Below, one piece after another: positions 2,671 through 11,217 of a DNA stretch of 32,000 nt (positions are counted from its first letter, which is position 1; every line of letters begins with the position of its first letter). Under the pieces are notes generated by a model. The model was not told where the DNA came from. It saw only the letters and a list, made by a program, of their open reading frames with translations, and ran no database searches. The DNA comes from Colwellia chukchiensis (GTDB taxonomy: Bacteria > Pseudomonadota > Gammaproteobacteria > Enterobacterales > Alteromonadaceae). The stretch lies in NCBI RefSeq assembly GCF_002104455.1, contig NZ_NBOC01000002.1, positions 10,369 through 42,368 of the forward strand. Direction: 5' to 3'. The translations under genes were made by a program, and so were the position numbers.

Positions 2671-2701
2671 TTGACTCTATAGCCACTATAGATTTTATAC
2701 T
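2671..2701 (+). promoter_or_regulatory. MerR-family (CadR/ZntR-type) activated promoter: TTGACT, 19-nt spacer, TATACT, with the dyad TCTATAG-CCA-CTATAGA.
   Basis: -35 TTGACT at 2671-2676. The spacer 2677-2695 is exactly 19 nt and contains a perfect 7-3-7 inverted repeat (2676-2692). -10 TATACT at 2696-2701, 20 nt before the ATG at 2722. A 19-bp spacer with an internal dyad is the MerR-family hallmark. Confidence 0.7.
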
Positions 2702-2721
2702 TATTTTAATATTATTACGGA

Positions 2722-3630
2722 ATGTTAAATATGTCAGAAAAATGTAGTGGTCAGTGTCAATCATCTTCTACCAATGAAGATGTAAAAATTGATGCGCAAT
2801 TAGATAACTATAGTGGCGGGTTTGTCAGTACATATAAAGTGCCTCAAATGGACTGTCCTTCAGAAGAAAGGTTGATCAGGTTAGCACTAGATGGTGTGGA
2901 ACCTTCTGTTGGCTTGCAATTTGATATTCCTAATCGCTTAGTGAAAGTTTTTCATGATGAAAATTTAGATGAAATAACAAAAAAGTTACAACAACTTAAA
3001 CTCGGTGCAGAGTTAGCATCAACTAAAGAAAGTTGCAGCACAGAAGCTGCAAAAGCAAAAGATCTAGCCCAAAAAAATGAGATGAAAGAAGCATCAACAC
3101 TAAAATGGTTGTTGGCTATTAACGGAGTCATGTTTTTTGTAGAGATAATTGCCGGGATTATTGCGCAGTCTGCTGGCCTTATTGCCGACTCATTAGATAT
3201 GTTTGCTGATGCTGCGGTGTATGGTTTAGCTATTTATGCCGTAGGTAAAAGTATCAGCATGAAACTTAGAGCGGCACATATATCTGGTGTACTTCAAATT
3301 ATTCTAGCGCTAGGTGCTTTGAGTGAAGTCGTAAGACGCTTTATTTATGGTAGTGAGCCTATGTCATCTTTAATGATGATATTTGGTGGAATAGCACTAA
3401 TCGCTAACATTGCTTGTCTGTTTTTAATATTTGGCAACAAAGAAGACGGCGCTCATATGAAAGCGAGCTGGATTTTTTCCGCAAATGACGTTATCGCAAA
3501 CGTTGGCGTAATCTTAGCTGGTTTATTAGTTACAGTAACAAGCAGCCGTTATCCAGATTTAGTGATTGGTTTGATAATTGCCCTTGTCGTTTTAAACGGT
3601 GCTCGCCGCATCTTACAGCTAAAGTATTAA
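2722..3630 (+). CDS. Cation-diffusion-facilitator-like metal transporter with an N-terminal variant HMA domain (MDCPSEE) and no C-terminal cytoplasmic domain.
   Basis: 302 aa. The N-terminal YKVPQMDCPSEERLIRLALDGVEPSV...VKVFHD has a ferredoxin-like HMA pattern carrying the MDCPxEE variant I know from Pseudomonas-type CadA N-termini. The membrane part has CDF-like motifs (IADSLDMFADAAVYGLAIYAV; HMKASWIFSANDVIANVGVILAG). The protein ends right after the last TM helix. Confidence 0.75.
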   Translation: MLNMSEKCSGQCQSSSTNEDVKIDAQLDNYSGGFVSTYKVPQMDCPSEERLIRLALDGVEPSVGLQFDIPNRLVKVFHDENLDEITKKLQQLKLGAELASTKESCSTEAAKAKDLAQKNEMKEASTLKWLLAINGVMFFVEIIAGIIAQSAGLIADSLDMFADAAVYGLAIYAVGKSISMKLRAAHISGVLQIILALGALSEVVRRFIYGSEPMSSLMMIFGGIALIANIACLFLIFGNKEDGAHMKASWIFSANDVIANVGVILAGLLVTVTSSRYPDLVIGLIIALVVLNGARRILQLKY

Positions 3631-3638
3631 GCAGAGAA

Positions 3639-4010
3639 ATGAAAATAGTGCACTCCTCGTATATAAAATCAAATATATCATACGTGATAATGATTTTAAT
3701 CGCGGTGCAGTCTGTATTTTTTTCGCTAGAAGAACTTGAAATAAACTTAAACGAGAGTTCTTTTAACACATCACTAACTGAGTCAATTACCCCATTAAAA
3801 GCTTCAGAAACCTCCAATGTATTTGAAGTAAATAATAGCTACACTTCAATTGATGATTGTAATTTTTGTTGCTGTTGTCACCTATTTTTAAATGCAGATT
3901 CTTCTTGTAATGTTTTACAAGCAATAGATCAATTTCCCACCTACGCCTTAGTTTCTCCTGAGCTAAAAGGCTATATGTCGGTGCCATTTCGTCCCCCTAA
4001 ACACGCCTAA
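3639..4010 (+). CDS. Small Cys-rich CzcI-like protein, the second paralogue, directly upstream of czcC.
   Basis: 123-aa ORF starting 8 nt after the previous stop. It has an N-terminal hydrophobic anchor (ISYVIMILIAVQSVFF), a DDCNFCCCCH cluster and a C-terminal FRPPKHA. This is the same architecture as ORF 2214-2573: a DCxxC cluster, then about 40 residues, then RPP. Confidence 0.55.
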   Translation: MKIVHSSYIKSNISYVIMILIAVQSVFFSLEELEINLNESSFNTSLTESITPLKASETSNVFEVNNSYTSIDDCNFCCCCHLFLNADSSCNVLQAIDQFPTYALVSPELKGYMSVPFRPPKHA

Positions 4011-4080
4011 TTTTATATCAAATTTAAAGAGGTCAACATTATTGGCCTAAATAACAATATAAATTTATAGGAAAGTATAC

Positions 4081-9487: not shown

Positions 9488-9525
9488 AAAGCAGCTTAAT
9501 TTATGTTTAAGCTGCTTTTATATTT
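9488..9525. terminator. Bidirectional rho-independent terminator between convergent czcA and czcD.
   Basis: aaagcagcttaa-tttatgt-ttaagctgcttt is a 12-bp perfect stem. A-rich sequence lies upstream and T-rich sequence downstream. Confidence 0.7.
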
Positions 9526-9551
9526 AATCTTTTTATTTTAATTTTTAAAGT

Positions 9552-10439
9552 TTAATTCGTATCATCTCGGCAACTTTCATTTAGAAACTCAAACTCTATC
9601 GTCGTATGCGATAAATGATAGGAAGCTAATTTAGTTGCAACTTCTTGTTTAAGTCTAATTAGGTCTTCAACTTCAAAGTTGTCTCTAAGCTCAAGATGCG
9701 CTGTTAAAACGTGACTTTCACCATCTAGTGACCAAAAGTGCATGTGGTGGATACCATTAACTTCTGGAAATTCCAGTAATGATTGTTTAATTCGTTCTTG
9801 GGTCTCTCTATCTGGTGCCGCTTGAAGAAAAAGCACCAACGTTGATTTCAAGTTTCTAAAAACGTTAAATAAGATAAATAGCGTGAAGCCAATTGATAAT
9901 AAAGGGTCTAAAATTGGCAGTTCAACAAAAAGAAGTACGACAGAAACAATAAGAACAGCAACCCAGCCAAGTACATCTTCAAGTAGATGCCATGTCAGTA
10001 CTTTTTCATTTAATGTTTCACCCGCTTTTAATTTGAAAACTGCATATCCATTCACGGCAACACCGAGTATGGCAAGTCCCAGCATCCCCTCAACTACAGG
10101 CATTTCAGGATTGGACAACCTTGGAATGGCTTCAAATAAAACCCAAATAGAACCAATAATCAAAACAATACTATTTACCAATGCACCAAAAAGTGTAAGA
10201 CGGCGATAACCATAGCTGAATTTGTCTGATGCTTCTTTATCTGAAAAACGACTTAAAATCCATGCAAAGCCGATAGACAGGCTATCACCTAAATCATGTA
10301 CAGCATCTGCCATTATCGCGGTACTGTTGGTAAGCCATCCACCAATAAACTCGATAATAGTAAATGTCACATTCAGAAAAAATGCCCAACCAATACGATC
10401 GCCTTTACCATGCTGATGACTGTGACTATGGTTGTGCAT
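9552..10439 (-). CDS. czcD: Cation diffusion facilitator Zn/Cd/Co exporter (CzcD/ZitB type) with a His-rich N-terminus.
   Basis: 295 aa. N-terminus MHNHSHSHQHGKGD. CDF site motifs are present (AIMADAVHDLGDSLS; TWHLLEDVLGW). C-terminal cytoplasmic domain is present (GIHHMHFWSLDGESHVLTAHLEL). Confidence 0.9.
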   Translation of the reverse strand: MHNHSHSHQHGKGDRIGWAFFLNVTFTIIEFIGGWLTNSTAIMADAVHDLGDSLSIGFAWILSRFSDKEASDKFSYGYRRLTLFGALVNSIVLIIGSIWVLFEAIPRLSNPEMPVVEGMLGLAILGVAVNGYAVFKLKAGETLNEKVLTWHLLEDVLGWVAVLIVSVVLLFVELPILDPLLSIGFTLFILFNVFRNLKSTLVLFLQAAPDRETQERIKQSLLEFPEVNGIHHMHFWSLDGESHVLTAHLELRDNFEVEDLIRLKQEVATKLASYHLSHTTIEFEFLNESCRDDTN

Positions 10440-11157
10440 TTTGTACCTCTAGTACTTTTTTATTTCTTAGTCTTGATACATTCATATTAATCAAGTGACG
10501 TATCACGCGTTGATATATCCAACGTTTTACTCCCGACAAATTAGTACCCTTTTCAAGATAAAACTCATCAGGGGAATCATAAAGCCCAAAGTCGTCATGA
10601 ATACCTTCTTTTTGAATATAGGTATCCTCTCCACGCCAATCCGTACCGGGTGAAGATAAGCACTTTGTTGCAACACCATAACCACAAAACTCACCTTTTG
10701 CTTGGTCAAATTTTTGCTGTAGTGAGCTTAAGTATTGCTCATCCAATATAAAGCCCTCTAAGTTTATCCAGCGTCCATCGAAATAAACTTCCACCCAACT
10801 ATGGATGATGTATTTAGGCGCTAACCAAAACACATAGGTTGGAATAGCACCTTTTTGTAATTGCTGATCAATAGTAAAACCGTGAAAACGACATTGAATG
10901 CCTAACCCTCGCAACAATGCCATCAGCAAGTTGCCTTTGGTATTACATTGTCCGTAACCATCGGATAAAACACTGCTTGCTGAAATATCATCACTCTCAT
11001 TGTAACCAAATAATATTTCATCTTTAACGAATTGGTAGGCTGCACCAATTTTGTTGAAGTTATCCAAGTTTTTCCACCCTCGTTGATTAATGAGAGATTG
11101 GATATTCTTATGTTCAAAATTAACAATTGTCGTATTATTTAAATATTTTTTTGTCAT
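10426..11157 (-). CDS. Cytoplasmic transglutaminase-like (papain-fold Cys-His) protein, the first gene of the MerR-controlled operon. It overlaps the czcD start by 14 nt.
   Basis: The ORF track gives 10426-11169. I prefer the second Met (ATG at 11157) because GGAG lies 7 nt upstream of it and the predicted -10 is at 11187-11192. Transglutaminase-core motifs are present: SDGYGQCNTKGNLLMALLRGLGIQCRFHGF (Cys75) and IIHSWVEVYFDGRWINLEG (His123). No signal peptide. Confidence 0.8.
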   Translation of the reverse strand: MTKKYLNNTTIVNFEHKNIQSLINQRGWKNLDNFNKIGAAYQFVKDEILFGYNESDDISASSVLSDGYGQCNTKGNLLMALLRGLGIQCRFHGFTIDQQLQKGAIPTYVFWLAPKYIIHSWVEVYFDGRWINLEGFILDEQYLSSLQQKFDQAKGEFCGYGVATKCLSSPGTDWRGEDTYIQKEGIHDDFGLYDSPDEFYLEKGTNLSGVKRWIYQRVIRHLINMNVSRLRNKKVLEVQNAQP

Positions 11158-11186
11158 TTTATTCTCCATTCAACTTGTATACTAAC

Positions 11187-11217
11187 ACTATAGAATCTAT
11201 AGTAACTATAGAGTCAA
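11187..11217 (-). promoter_or_regulatory. MerR-family (CadR/ZntR-type) activated promoter reading leftwards: TTGACT, 19-nt spacer, TATAGT, with the dyad TCTATAG-TAA-CTATAGA.
   Basis: On the reverse strand 11217-11187 reads TTGACT-ctatagttactatagattc-TATAGT. It lies in the divergent gap between the regulator gene (11235, +) and the TGase-like/czcD operon (-). Three CTATAG hexamers start at 11188, 11197 and 11206, a 9-bp phasing. Confidence 0.7.

What the first reader, a model, noticed from the sequence alone, without database searches (positions are those of the whole stretch)
2671..11217. Twin MerR-type promoters 8.5 kb apart appear to place an RND czc operon and two CDF exporters under one CadR/ZntR-like regulator
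Two promoters share almost the same sequence. Site A (+, 2671-2701) reads TTGACT-ctatagccactatagattt-TATACT. Site B (reverse strand, 11217-11187) reads TTGACT-ctatagttactatagattc-TATAGT. The -35 hexamers are identical, both spacers are exactly 19 nt, 16 of 19 spacer bases match, and both contain a perfect TCTATAG-N3-CTATAGA dyad. CTATAG hexamers recur at 9-bp phasing.

Site B sits in the classic divergent position next to the CadR/ZntR-like gene at 11235. Site A precedes five co-directional genes with gaps of 71 nt or less: the HMA-CDF, the czcI-like gene and czcCBA.

HME-RND czc/cus operons are classically controlled by two-component systems (CzcRS/CusRS), and none is in this window. MerR-type distortion control of a czcCBA operon would therefore be an unusual wiring.
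Basis: partly seen in the sequence, partly recalled or inferred. Interest (0 to 1): 0.6.

Follow-up and report, generated by a model that had tools for sequence, protein, structure and literature searches.

The report
Twin CadR/PbrR promoters drive metal-efflux cassette
Two near-identical metal-sensor (MerR-type) promoters 8.5 kb apart are real, conserved across many marine bacteria, and most likely put an RND czc pump plus two CDF exporters under one cytoplasmic Cd/Pb/Zn sensor; this wiring is common in genomes but I found no paper that tests it.

Summary
Site A (2671-2701, +) and site B (11217-11187, -) are TTGACT-N19-TATA(C/G)T promoters, each with a perfect TCTATAG-N3-CTATAGA dyad. These are the only two such dyads in the 4.03-Mb genome.

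The regulator at 11235-11624 passes the CadR-PbrR model, and its closest solved relative is PbrR691 with the same Cys triad. The same box lies upstream of orthologues of the first gene in 76 of 80 related loci. There it is usually divergent from cadR, and in at least 52 loci it is followed co-directionally by czcCBA. One strong bidirectional terminator (9488-9518) closes both units. No CzcRS-type two-component system reaches its model cut-off anywhere in the genome.

- **Less unusual than claimed.** The wiring is widespread in marine Gammaproteobacteria, including the Shewanella sp. ANA-3 plasmid. It extends the known CadR-CDF divergon.
- **"One regulator" is uncertain.** A paralogue 84% identical, with an identical recognition helix and its own similar operator, sits on another contig.
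- **A portable unit.** Window 2606-11624 recurs as a 9-kb block in other genomic contexts.

Unchecked notes from this scan report similar architectures in other genomes.

The parts
2606..11624 (.). 9-kb two-operon regulon cassette. It runs from about 65 nt upstream of site A to the cadR stop codon and is found as one block in other genomic contexts.
   Evidence: blastn gives one 9,039-bp alignment at about 92% identity, with these exact ends, in L029 and L043. L036 has the same ends but is interrupted by an inserted gene. All three have different flanks.
2671..2701 (+). Site A: MerR-type promoter TTGACT-N19-TATACT, with no regulator gene next to it.
   Evidence: PWM score 41.2, second highest in the genome. 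The same box is conserved upstream of orthologues in 76 of 80 loci.
2676..2692 (.). Operator dyad A, TCTATAG-CCA-CTATAGA.
2722..3630 (+). CDF exporter with a Cys-containing N-terminal extension and no C-terminal dimerisation domain. The likely true start is ATG 2731. It is the first gene of unit A.
   Evidence: Pfam Cation_efflux 1.5e-16. Most orthologue matches begin at residue 2-4. It is 52-56% identical to the CDF of the cadR-CDF-lspA-ISPpu12-transposase cluster on Acinetobacter plasmids. No Pfam HMA hit.
3639..4010 (+). czcI-like small Cys-rich protein, 8 nt after the CDF stop codon.
   Evidence: No family hit. The sequence carries a CCCC cluster and an RPP tail.
4081..5373 (+). czcC1, outer-membrane factor.
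   Evidence: Pfam OEP 8.9e-31.
5445..6341 (+). czcB1, periplasmic adaptor.
   Evidence: HlyD_D23; hits to the CzcB/NccB-family and IhpB models.
6352..9480 (+). czcA1, HME-RND pump of the divalent-cation type.
   Evidence: TIGR00914 1502 bits against a cut-off of 701. [15 protein letters not shown] motif at residue 402.
9488..9518 (.). Bidirectional intrinsic terminator shared by the two convergent units.
   Evidence: 12-bp stem with a T-rich tract after the stem on both strands. It is the strongest terminator-like site in 2100-12200.
9552..10439 (-). Full-length CDF exporter (ZitB/CzcD-like), second gene of unit B.
   Evidence: Cation_efflux 7.8e-40 plus ZT_dimer; TIGR01297 204 bits.
10426..11169 (-). 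Transglutaminase-core-like protein, first gene of unit B. The likely start is ATG 11157. It overlaps the CDF start by 14 nt.
   Evidence: Transglut_core 2.2e-14. 85% identical to the C16 paralogue of 241 aa.
11187..11217 (-). Site B: MerR-type promoter TTGACT-N19-TATAGT, divergent from cadR.
   Evidence: Top PWM score in the genome, 45.8. Conserved in island copies.
11196..11212 (.). Operator dyad B, TCTATAG-TAA-CTATAGA.
11175..11203 (+). Putative cadR promoter TTGTAT-N17-TATAGT. Its -10 box lies inside the operator half-site, which would give autorepression (inferred).
   Evidence: The same TTGTAT-N17-TATAGT is present at the C16 paralogous locus. It falls below the consensus-scan threshold.
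11235..11624 (+). cadR/pbrR-like MerR-family metal sensor, 129 aa.
   Evidence: TIGR02047 154.8 bits against a cut-off of 151.45. Best solved match is 5GPE (129 aa, deposited as 'Transcriptional regulator, MerR-family'), E 2e-38, then the CadR entries 6JGF/6JGV. Cys77, Cys112 and Cys121 align with its cysteines.

Best explanation
Window 2606-11624 is a self-contained, horizontally mobile 9-kb metal-efflux regulon. It has two convergent operons ending at one bidirectional terminator.
- Unit A: site A, then the CDF gene, czcI-like gene and czcCBA.
- Unit B: site B, then the transglutaminase-like gene and a second CDF gene.

Each unit starts at a sigma-70 promoter with an over-long 19-bp spacer filled by a CTATAG-N3-CTATAG dyad. 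A dimer of the 129-aa CadR/PbrR-type regulator (11235-11624) binds both dyads.
- Without metal it keeps the promoters shut.
- With Cd(II), Pb(II) or Zn(II) bound at the Cys77'/Cys112/Cys121 site it untwists the spacer, so that the -35 and -10 boxes align for RNA polymerase.

The inner-membrane exporters and the trans-envelope RND pump would then be induced together from a cytoplasmic metal signal, not from a periplasm-sensing CzcRS system. cadR itself is probably read from a TTGTAT-N17-TATAGT promoter whose -10 box lies in the operator, which would give autorepression.

Shown here: the sequence anatomy, genome-wide uniqueness, regulator family and Cys triad, conservation of the box in relatives, gene order, the terminator, and the absence of a CzcRS-type system.

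Inferred: binding, metal specificity, the distortion mechanism (by homology with MerR, CueR, ZntR, CadR and PbrR), co-transcription through czcA, and autorepression.
For: **Anatomy and uniqueness**
- Sequence at both sites.
- Only two perfect dyads in 4.03 Mb.
- A PWM was built from 40 sites of other loci, with the near-identical island copies excluded. It scores site B 45.8, site A 41.2 and the C16 site 40.5. Two other MerR-type promoters score about 27 and everything else 14.7 or less. The genome mean is -92 with sd 18.

**Regulator**
- TIGR02047 CadR-PbrR above its cut-off; ZntR, CueR and MerR models below theirs.
- Closest solved structure is 5GPE, with cysteines aligned at 77, 112 and 121.

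**Phylogenetic footprint**
- The box is present about 52-63 nt before the start of orthologues in 76 of 80 loci, down to 58% protein identity.
- Information content is 1.59 bits per position in the 31 bp, against 0.30 and 0.41 in the flanks, over 56 unique sequences.
- In the diverged split-type locus L039 (71-76% nucleotide identity) both boxes are kept.

**Operon**
- Gaps are 8, 70, 71 and 10 nt, and no terminator-like site lies in them.
- A strong shared terminator follows czcA1.
- In 52 loci the box is followed by the CDF gene and then, co-directionally, czcCBA. This includes the annotated Shewanella sp. ANA-3 plasmid.
- L036 and L038 carry an extra gene inserted co-directionally with tight spacing.
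- L040 has boxes directly upstream of a czcI-like-czcCBA unit.

**Unit of inheritance**
- Window 2606-11624 recurs as one block in different contexts.

**No competing regulator**
- No TIGR01386 or TIGR01387 match above cut-off in the genome, and none of the listed matches lies in contig C12:1-42368.

**Experimental precedent for the first gene's family**
- A. baumannii czcE is induced 480-fold by Cd, and CadR is the divergent MerR-type regulator (bioRxiv 10.1101/2020.10.20.348086). I assign czcE to this family by homology only; I did not align it.
Against:
- TIGR02047 is passed by only 3 bits.
- The left-hand czcI-czcCBA operon (2573 to 1, minus strand) is intact in many genomes without any MerR box of its own. 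Such units can therefore be expressed from other promoters, and an internal promoter for czcI1-czcCBA1 cannot be excluded.
- In some relatives (L077, L079, L083, L085, L107) czcCBA is convergent to the CDF gene and has no CTATAG dyad within 900 nt upstream. The linkage is therefore not universal.
- The PWM training sites were collected with a pattern derived from this motif, so the PWM is not fully independent.
- A paralogous regulator may share the sites.
Confidence: 0.7

Rival explanations
1. Shared regulon. The three near-identical operators (site A, site B and the C16 site) are served interchangeably by two paralogous CadR proteins, the one in the window and the one at C16. These may also form heterodimers. 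Site A is then not under 'one' regulator. This modifies the best explanation and does not exclude it.
For: - The C16 regulator is 84% identical.
- Its recognition helix (CSIQTIRYYE) and Cys triad are identical.
- Its operator, TTGACC-ctatagttactataggttt-TACACT, keeps the CTATAG-N3-CTATAG core and scores 40.5 with the same PWM.
- Site B variants in island copies range between the two flank types.
Against: - The 9-kb cassette carries its own cadR wherever the locus is complete (9 of 9 loci), so it does not depend on a second copy.
- The flanking operator positions differ (T versus C next to the core) and could give a preference.
Confidence: 0.35
2. Site A controls only the CDF gene, perhaps with czcI. 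czcCBA1 is transcribed mainly from an internal promoter under another, unidentified regulator.
For: - The neighbouring czcI0-czcC0B0A0 operon has no MerR box, yet it is conserved and intact.
- 70- and 71-nt gaps precede czcC1 and czcB1. An AT-rich 9-bp hairpin lies in 5374-5444.
- Some relatives have czcCBA uncoupled from the CDF gene.
Against: - Only 8 nt separate the CDF stop from czcI1.
- No terminator-like site lies in the gaps, and no promoter-like hit on the + strand falls in them.
- Gene order is conserved in 52 loci.
- The first convincing terminator comes after czcA1.
- No CzcRS-type system exists in the genome.
Confidence: 0.15
3. Site A is a relic. It would be the operator left behind when the cassette's original divergent cadR was lost. 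It is now constitutive or silent, and its likeness to site B is only historical.
For: - In most relatives cadR sits directly divergent from this CDF gene. Here it does not.
- The window regulator is only 45-51% identical to those cadR genes, while the CDF is 59-68% identical. This suggests a regulator of another lineage.
- A CAT triplet at 2652-2654 lies 16 nt from the -35 box, where a cadR start codon would be.
Against: - The dyad is perfect, and the -35 box, 19-bp spacer and -10 box are intact.
- The box is kept in the diverged split-type locus L039, while its flanks have diverged.
- A 19-bp spacer promoter without an activator would be poorly active, leaving a 6.8-kb operon unexpressed yet intact across genera.
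- The recognition helices of the two regulator lineages differ by one conservative residue, V versus I.
Confidence: 0.05

Closest known systems
PbrR / PpbrA of the Cupriavidus metallidurans pbr lead-resistance locus, and its paralogue PbrR691 (which I take PDB 5GPE to be; the entry itself is titled only 'MerR-family')
   Same: - 5GPE is the best solved-structure match (E 2e-38), has the same length (129 aa) and the same Cys spacing.
- The promoter has a 19-bp spacer with a CTATAG-type dyad. This part rests on my own knowledge of the pbr promoter and on PMC1526738 for the shared CadR/PbrR signal.
- Relatives of this locus also carry a PbrT-like cytochrome c-FTR1 gene with its own box, and an lspA gene that I liken to pbrC of the pbr locus (signal peptidase; PMC1526738).
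   Different: - The effector here is a CDF plus an HME-RND pump, not a P1B-ATPase (PbrA).
- There are two operators 8.5 kb apart.
- No pbrT, pbrA or pbrD gene is present in this window.
CadR-cadA of Pseudomonas putida and P. aeruginosa
   Same: - Same regulator family (6JGF and 6JGV at E about 3e-32).
- Divergent arrangement and a 19-bp spacer with an inverted repeat (PMC1526738, PMC8469834).
   Different: - Pseudomonas CadR acts on cadA and reaches czcCBA only indirectly, through czcRS3 (PMC8469834). Here the box stands directly before the operon that holds czcCBA, and no CzcRS exists.
- The regulator is 129 aa against the 147-aa CadR chain, so it lacks that chain's C-terminal extension (His-rich, from my own knowledge).
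- The Cys112-Cys121 spacing follows the 5GPE chain, not CadR.
CadR-CDF divergon: A. baumannii CadR-CzcE; the cadR-CDF-lspA cluster next to an ISPpu12-family transposase; plasmids pWW0 and pKLH202
   Same: - The first gene of unit A belongs to this CDF family, at 52-56% identity.
- A MerR-type box lies between cadR and the CDF gene.
- Cd induction through CadR was shown in A. baumannii (bioRxiv 10.1101/2020.10.20.348086). The divergon was predicted by comparative genomics (PMC1526738).
- An ISPpu12-like copy is also present in this genome on contig C8.
   Different: - Here the CDF gene is followed by czcI-czcCBA in the same transcription unit.
- The regulator is remote from this promoter and adjacent to a second one.
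MerR-family regulators of RND pumps: GolS with gesABC/mdsABC in Salmonella, SoxR with mexGHI-opmD in P. aeruginosa
   Same: A MerR-family sensor controls transcription of a tripartite RND operon (PMC10333786).
   Different: - Those pumps are not HME-RND czc-type divalent-cation exporters.
- The sensors respond to Au(I) or to redox-active compounds.
- No CDF partner is encoded in the operon.
CzcRS-controlled czcCBA (Cupriavidus, Pseudomonas)
   Same: The same pump family: CzcA with the DFG-DGA-VEN motif, a czcI-like small protein, and czcC and czcB.
   Different: - No heavy-metal sensor kinase or response regulator reaches its model cut-off in the genome.
- The predicted signal is cytoplasmic metal sensed by a MerR-type protein, not periplasmic metal sensed by CzcS.

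Membership tests
MerR-type metal-responsive promoter/operator | Sigma-70 -35 and -10 hexamers separated by an over-long 19-20 bp spacer | tested here: met
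   TTGACT-19-TATACT at site A and TTGACT-19-TATAGT at site B.
MerR-type metal-responsive promoter/operator | Dyad-symmetric operator inside the spacer, overlapping the -35 box | tested here: met
   Perfect 7-3-7 dyad at both sites, unique in the genome.
MerR-type metal-responsive promoter/operator | Regulator gene adjacent and divergently transcribed | tested here: inconclusive
   Met at site B, where the cadR ATG lies 17 nt from the -35 box. Not met at site A, which is 8.5 kb from cadR. In 78 box occurrences in relatives, cadR is directly divergent.
MerR-type metal-responsive promoter/operator | Metal-dependent activation by DNA distortion, with repression by the apo-protein | not testable with these tools
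   Needs reporter, run-off transcription or footprint assays.
CadR-PbrR subfamily (NCBIfam TIGR02047) | Score above the curated equivalog cut-off | tested here: met
   154.8 bits against a cut-off of 151.45, a narrow pass. The MerR, CueR and ZntR models score well below their cut-offs.
CadR-PbrR subfamily (NCBIfam TIGR02047) | Three metal-ligand cysteines: one at the start of the dimerisation helix, two in the C-terminal loop | tested here: met
   Cys77, Cys112 and Cys121 align with the three corresponding cysteines of 5GPE. They are invariant across six paralogues and orthologues.
CadR-PbrR subfamily (NCBIfam TIGR02047) | C-terminal extension of Pseudomonas CadR (His-rich second metal site) | tested here: not met
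   The protein ends at residue 129, while the 147-aa CadR chain 6JGV extends beyond the aligned residue 125. That the extra tail is His-rich comes from my own knowledge. It is a feature of Pseudomonas CadR, not of the whole subfamily.
ZntR (TIGR02043 / NF007069) | Score above the curated cut-off | tested here: not met
   95.6 bits against 167.95, and 105.1 bits against 143.
CzcRS-regulated czc determinant | Heavy-metal sensor kinase and response regulator (TIGR01386 / TIGR01387), linked or elsewhere in the genome | tested here: not met
   Best hits are 190.7 bits (cut-off 292.55) and 191.2 bits (cut-off 279.2). None of the listed matches lies in C12:1-42368. The 10 kb to the left holds czcA0, a SIR2-like gene, a HerA/DUF87-domain gene and an IS66 element.
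HME-RND CzcA (TIGR00914), divalent-cation type | Model score above cut-off, and the DFG-x3-DGA-x3-VEN motif of the fourth transmembrane helix | tested here: met
   1502 bits against a cut-off of 701. [15 protein letters not shown] at residue 402. The meaning of the motif comes from my own knowledge (Nies 2003).
HMA (PF00403) domain on the first CDF | Profile match to the heavy-metal-associated domain | tested here: not met
   No Pfam hit for residues 4-123, even at E up to 5. Only an MDCPSEE motif is visible. No fold was predicted.

The most novel reading that the evidence does not exclude
A portable 9-kb 'regulon cassette' in which trans-envelope HME-RND export (czcCBA) responds to cytoplasmic metal through a PbrR/CadR-type MerR switch, not to periplasmic metal through CzcRS. 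The cytoplasm-to-periplasm step (CDF) and the periplasm-to-outside step (RND) are written on one transcript.

The orphan operator at site A would be a case of regulator replacement. The cassette lost its own divergent cadR and is now run in trans by a CadR of a different lineage that recognises the same CTATAG-N3-CTATAG core. The insertion also cut a second czcI-czcCBA operon off from its ancestral MerR promoter. That ancestral order is still intact at the paralogous C16 locus.
Probability: 0.45. Interest if true: 0.5.

Novelty: new variant of a known kind. Interest (0 to 1): 0.4.

Why it matters
Czc-type RND pumps are textbook examples of control by a periplasm-sensing two-component system. 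If this wiring works as read, a large group of marine Gammaproteobacteria induces the RND pump from a cytoplasmic MerR-type sensor, together with CDF exporters. The group includes Pseudoalteromonas, Colwellia, Shewanella, Alishewanella, Thalassolituus and Halieaceae. That changes which metal pool triggers trans-envelope efflux.

It also gives a compact, transferable Cd/Pb/Zn-inducible module that could serve biosensors or bioremediation strains. And it offers a clean natural case of one operator sequence being reused at a distance, and of regulators being swapped while the operator stays fixed.

The step beyond what is known is modest. The regulator family, the operator type and the CadR-CDF pairing are established.

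Tried and rejected
- **Literature.** Nine full-text searches found no paper showing direct MerR-type control of czcCBA. This is not proof that none exists. Curated regulon databases such as RegPrecise could not be queried.
- **CzcRS just outside the window.** Rejected.
- **Likeness due to a recent segmental duplication.** Rejected. Similarity stops at the ends of the 31-bp promoter (read), and the box is conserved across loci while the flanks are not.
- **Site A as a bidirectional promoter for the left-hand czc operon.** Rejected. Read on the minus strand, the hexamers are AGTATA and AGTCAA (read).
- **Repeats bounding the 9-kb cassette.** None of 9 bp or more, direct or inverted.
- **MerR boxes upstream of the convergent czcCBA operons in L077, L079, L083, L085 and L107.** None within 900 nt. 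What regulates those operons was not resolved.
- **HMA domain on the first CDF.** No profile support.
- **Survey of cadR-strand promoters across all loci.** Confounded, because palindromic sites are counted on both strands. Only the window and C16 comparison is used.

Full report
**1. Observation**

Site A (2671-2701, + strand) reads TTGACT-ctatagccactatagattt-TATACT. Site B (11217-11187, - strand) reads TTGACT-ctatagttactatagattc-TATAGT.
- identical -35 hexamers;
- 19-nt spacers with 16 of 19 bases identical;
- a perfect TCTATAG-N3-CTATAGA dyad in each.

In the window the dyad pattern, at up to 2 mismatches, gives 3 matches against 0.11 expected, and none of 100 shuffles reaches 3. The window lies at C12:10369-42368 of a 4.03-Mb, 44-contig, roughly 42% G+C genome. 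In that genome the dyad occurs only at these two places at 0 or 1 mismatch. The full 31-bp pattern finds only two further, more distant MerR-like promoters.

**2. Genes**

Unit A runs rightwards from site A:
- a CDF exporter at 2722-3630, whose conserved start is probably ATG 2731;
- a small Cys-rich czcI-like protein at 3639-4010;
- an outer-membrane factor at 4081-5373;
- a periplasmic adaptor at 5445-6341;
- CzcA at 6352-9480, scoring 1502 bits on TIGR00914.

CzcA carries [15 protein letters not shown]. From my own knowledge (Nies 2003) this is the signature of divalent-cation HME-RND pumps.

Unit B runs leftwards from site B:
- a transglutaminase-core-like protein at 10426-11169, with a probable start at 11157;
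- a full-length ZitB/CzcD-like CDF at 9552-10439, overlapping the previous gene by 14 nt.

With the probable starts, both first genes begin 29 nt after their -10 box.

The regulator at 11235-11624 (129 aa) passes the CadR-PbrR equivalog model, at 154.8 bits against a cut-off of 151.45. It fails the ZntR, CueR and MerR models. Its best solved relative is 5GPE (E 2e-38), which I take to be PbrR691, followed by P. putida CadR. Cys77, Cys112 and Cys121 align with the corresponding cysteines of 5GPE.

The 'HMA' label for the N-terminus of the first CDF has no Pfam support.

**3. Transcription-unit boundaries**

The strongest terminator-like element in 2100-12200 is a 12-bp-stem hairpin at 9488-9518. 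A T-rich tract follows the stem on both strands. It sits between the czcA1 stop (9480) and the stop of the convergent CDF gene (9552). The gaps inside unit A (8, 70, 71 and 10 nt) hold no terminator-like site and no + strand promoter-like hit. The layout therefore fits two convergent operons closed by one terminator. This is inference, because no transcript data could be obtained.

**4. Is there a CzcRS?**

No match to the heavy-metal sensor kinase or response-regulator models reaches its cut-off anywhere in the genome. The best scores are 190.7 bits (cut-off 292.55) and 191.2 bits (cut-off 279.2). None of the listed kinase or regulator matches lies in C12:1-42368. The 10 kb to the left of the window holds the rest of a second czc operon, a SIR2-like gene, a HerA/DUF87-domain gene and an IS66 element. 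The genome has five HME-RND pumps.

**5. Comparative evidence**

A scan of species-representative genomes with the first CDF protein returned more than 500 relatives, and 80 loci were kept. The loci 93-96% identical to this protein come from Pseudoalteromonas, Colwellia, Glaciecola and Aliiglaciecola. The element therefore moves between genera, and the host here is probably a Pseudoalteromonas or an allied member of the Alteromonadales (inference).

- **The box is conserved.** In 76 of 80 loci a TTGAnn-N19-TAnnnT promoter with a CTATAG-N3-CTATAG-type dyad lies upstream of the orthologue, typically 52-63 nt before the start. This holds down to 58% protein identity.
- **Conservation is confined to the promoter.** Anchored on the -35 box, 56 unique sequences carry 1.59 bits per position within the 31 bp, against 0.30 and 0.41 in the flanks. 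This is a phylogenetic footprint, not a duplication remnant.
- **The usual layout.** cadR sits directly divergent from the box. Then come the CDF gene, one or two small genes (a czcI-like gene, lspA or a methyltransferase-like gene), czcCBA, and often a further CDF gene.
- **How often czcCBA follows.** 52 box occurrences are followed co-directionally by the CDF gene and czcCBA. More loci are cut off by contig ends.
- **An annotated example.** The Shewanella sp. ANA-3 plasmid shows exactly this, with the regulator named cadR.
- **A second box is common.** Many loci carry one before a 660-aa cytochrome c-FTR1 fusion, which I read as PbrT-like. Multi-operator CadR/PbrR regulons are therefore the norm in this group.
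- **Boxes directly before czc genes.** L040 has boxes directly before a czcI-like-czcCBA unit and before a transglutaminase-like gene.

A PWM was built from 40 sites of other loci, with the near-identical island copies excluded. On the own genome it scores site B 45.8, site A 41.2 and a C16 site 40.5. Two other MerR-type promoters score about 27 and nothing else exceeds 14.7. One caveat applies: the training sites were gathered with a pattern derived from this motif.

**6. The split arrangement**

blastn shows that window 2606-11624 recurs as one block in loci whose flanks differ (L029, L036, L043). The block runs from 65 nt upstream of site A to the cadR stop codon and is about 92% identical. 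All nine island copies that are complete carry cadR at the far end. L039 (Colwellia) has the same split layout at only 71-76% nucleotide identity and keeps both boxes.

A paralogous locus on contig C16 shows what is probably the older order. There a regulator sits divergent from a box, followed by a short CDF gene, a transglutaminase-like gene, a CDF gene, czcI and czcCBA, all co-directional. Protein identities to the window copies are 67-87%.

Relative to that order, the window looks as if a cadR-less cassette (box, CDF gene, czcI, czcCBA) was inserted in inverted orientation between the second CDF gene and czcI. L039 is an intermediate that still keeps the short CDF gene.

Two consequences follow.
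- The left-hand czcI0-czcC0B0A0 operon (2573 to 1, - strand) is now cut off from any MerR box. Its promoter is unknown.
- The window regulator belongs to the lineage linked to the transglutaminase-CDF genes, at 84-97% identity. It is only 45-51% identical to the cadR genes that normally sit beside this CDF. The recognition helices of the two lineages differ only by V versus I.

This order of events is an inference from gene order and was not tested with a tree.

**7. 'One regulator'?**

The C16 paralogue is 84% identical and has an identical recognition helix and Cys triad. Its operator keeps the CTATAG-N3-CTATAG core. Cross-recognition is likely. The genome holds two further MerR-type promoters with related dyads:
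- C1, next to a 138-aa regulator and a MerT-like gene;
- C8, inside an ISPpu12-like cadR-CDF-lspA-transposase element that is 91% identical to an Acinetobacter plasmid copy.

**8. Mechanism**

By homology with MerR, CueR, ZntR, CadR and PbrR (established knowledge), a regulator dimer sits on the dyad inside the 19-bp spacer. It represses when free of metal. When the Cys triad binds a divalent soft metal, it untwists the DNA so that RNA polymerase can use the promoter.

On the cadR strand, TTGTAT-N17-TATAGT (11175-11203) is conserved at the C16 locus. Its -10 box lies in the operator half-site. I infer autorepression from this, as I recall for merR. Metal specificity (Cd, Pb or Zn) is inferred from the family and the cargo genes.

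**9. Comparison with what is known**

- CadR is known to control cadA.
- In P. putida CadR reaches czcCBA only through czcRS3 (PMC8469834).
- CadR-CDF divergons were predicted on plasmids (PMC1526738) and demonstrated for A. baumannii CzcE (bioRxiv 10.1101/2020.10.20.348086).
- MerR-family regulators of RND operons are described for GolS with mdsABC/gesABC and SoxR with mexGHI-opmD (PMC10333786).

I found no paper describing a MerR-type promoter directly in front of an operon containing czcCBA. The held library is incomplete, and curated regulon databases could not be checked. Unchecked first-reader notes from this scan describe the same or similar architectures in several other genomes. One of them reports this same promoter and dyad (TTGACT-N19-TATACT with TCTATAG-N3-CTATAGA) without an adjacent regulator gene.

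**10. Verdict**

It is a variant of the known CadR/PbrR system in three respects:
- the target operon includes an HME-RND pump;
- there are two operators at a distance;
- the whole set travels as a portable cassette.

It is not a new kind of system.

| Item | Score |
|---|---|
| Confidence in the best explanation | 0.7 |
| Interest | 0.4 |

Noticed in passing
G000 contig C16:9000-19000 (L001), box at L001:4615-4645: A paralogous regulon. A 129-aa CadR (84% identical) is divergent from TTGACC-ctatagttactataggttt-TACACT. That promoter is followed co-directionally by a short CDF gene, a transglutaminase-like gene, a CDF gene, czcI and czcCBA. A further HME-RND operon lies downstream of the regulator on its own strand. 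Its pump carries an AIG...DGA...IEN motif instead of DFG...DGA...VEN, and a DUF411 gene sits in it.
   Followed up: partly
window 1-2573 (- strand) and C12:6689-9889: A second czcI-czcCBA operon points away from site A and has no MerR box. It appears to have been cut off from its ancestral promoter by the cassette insertion. The GTG at 2573 is not conserved (GTA in L032, L034 and L038), so the real start is probably the ATG near 2540. A GCTAGT-N16-GCTAGT direct repeat lies upstream, and its meaning is unknown.
   Followed up: partly
window 2652-2654: A CAT triplet 16 nt upstream of the site A -35 box sits exactly where the cadR start codon lies in canonical loci. Read on the minus strand it is followed at once by TAA. 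It may be a vestige of a lost divergent cadR. The similarity beyond it is weak.
   Followed up: no
G000 contig C8:40729-44102 (L110:3729-7102): An ISPpu12-like element (cadR, CDF, lspA and an ISL3-family transposase), 91% identical to the copy on Acinetobacter seifertii plasmid pFA319. It has its own MerR-type promoter TTGACC-N19-TAAAAT. The contig's G+C content (45.8%) is above the genome's.
   Followed up: partly
G000 contig C1:27418-27448 (L002:5419-5449): Another MerR-type promoter (TTGAAC-ctatagttactacaggttc-TATACT) lies beside a 138-aa MerR-family gene. It faces a short Cys-rich ORF ending near ...KGDC and a MerT-like protein. The short ORF may be a GDCCVxC-type (seleno)protein interrupted by a stop codon.
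   Followed up: no
L051:7462-9538, L040:7486-9501 and about 30 other loci: In many relatives a second CadR/PbrR box precedes a 660-aa cytochrome c-FTR1/EfeU fusion, which I read as PbrT-like. It is convergent with cadR. This gene is absent from the window.
   Followed up: partly
L038:11010-11654 and L036 (same position): A 214-aa ORF that looks to me like a SAM-dependent methyltransferase (not run against any family library) is inserted co-directionally between the CDF gene and czcI1 in two island copies.
   Followed up: no
window 12048-12069: The hairpin ACTCCGTATATAAGTACGGAGT directly follows the second MerR-family gene (11667-12044) and precedes merC. It was flagged as terminator-like, but it looks like a mer operator. 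It is unrelated to the CTATAG boxes.
   Followed up: no
C12:1-6100 (L003): Left of the czc genes lie a SIR2-like gene and a HerA/DUF87-domain gene, which look like a defence pair, and an IS66-family element with its three ORFs. This fits an accessory island.
   Followed up: no
L077, L079, L083, L085, L107: In these relatives czcCBA is convergent to the CadR-controlled CDF gene and has no CTATAG dyad within 900 nt upstream. Its regulator is unidentified.
   Followed up: partly
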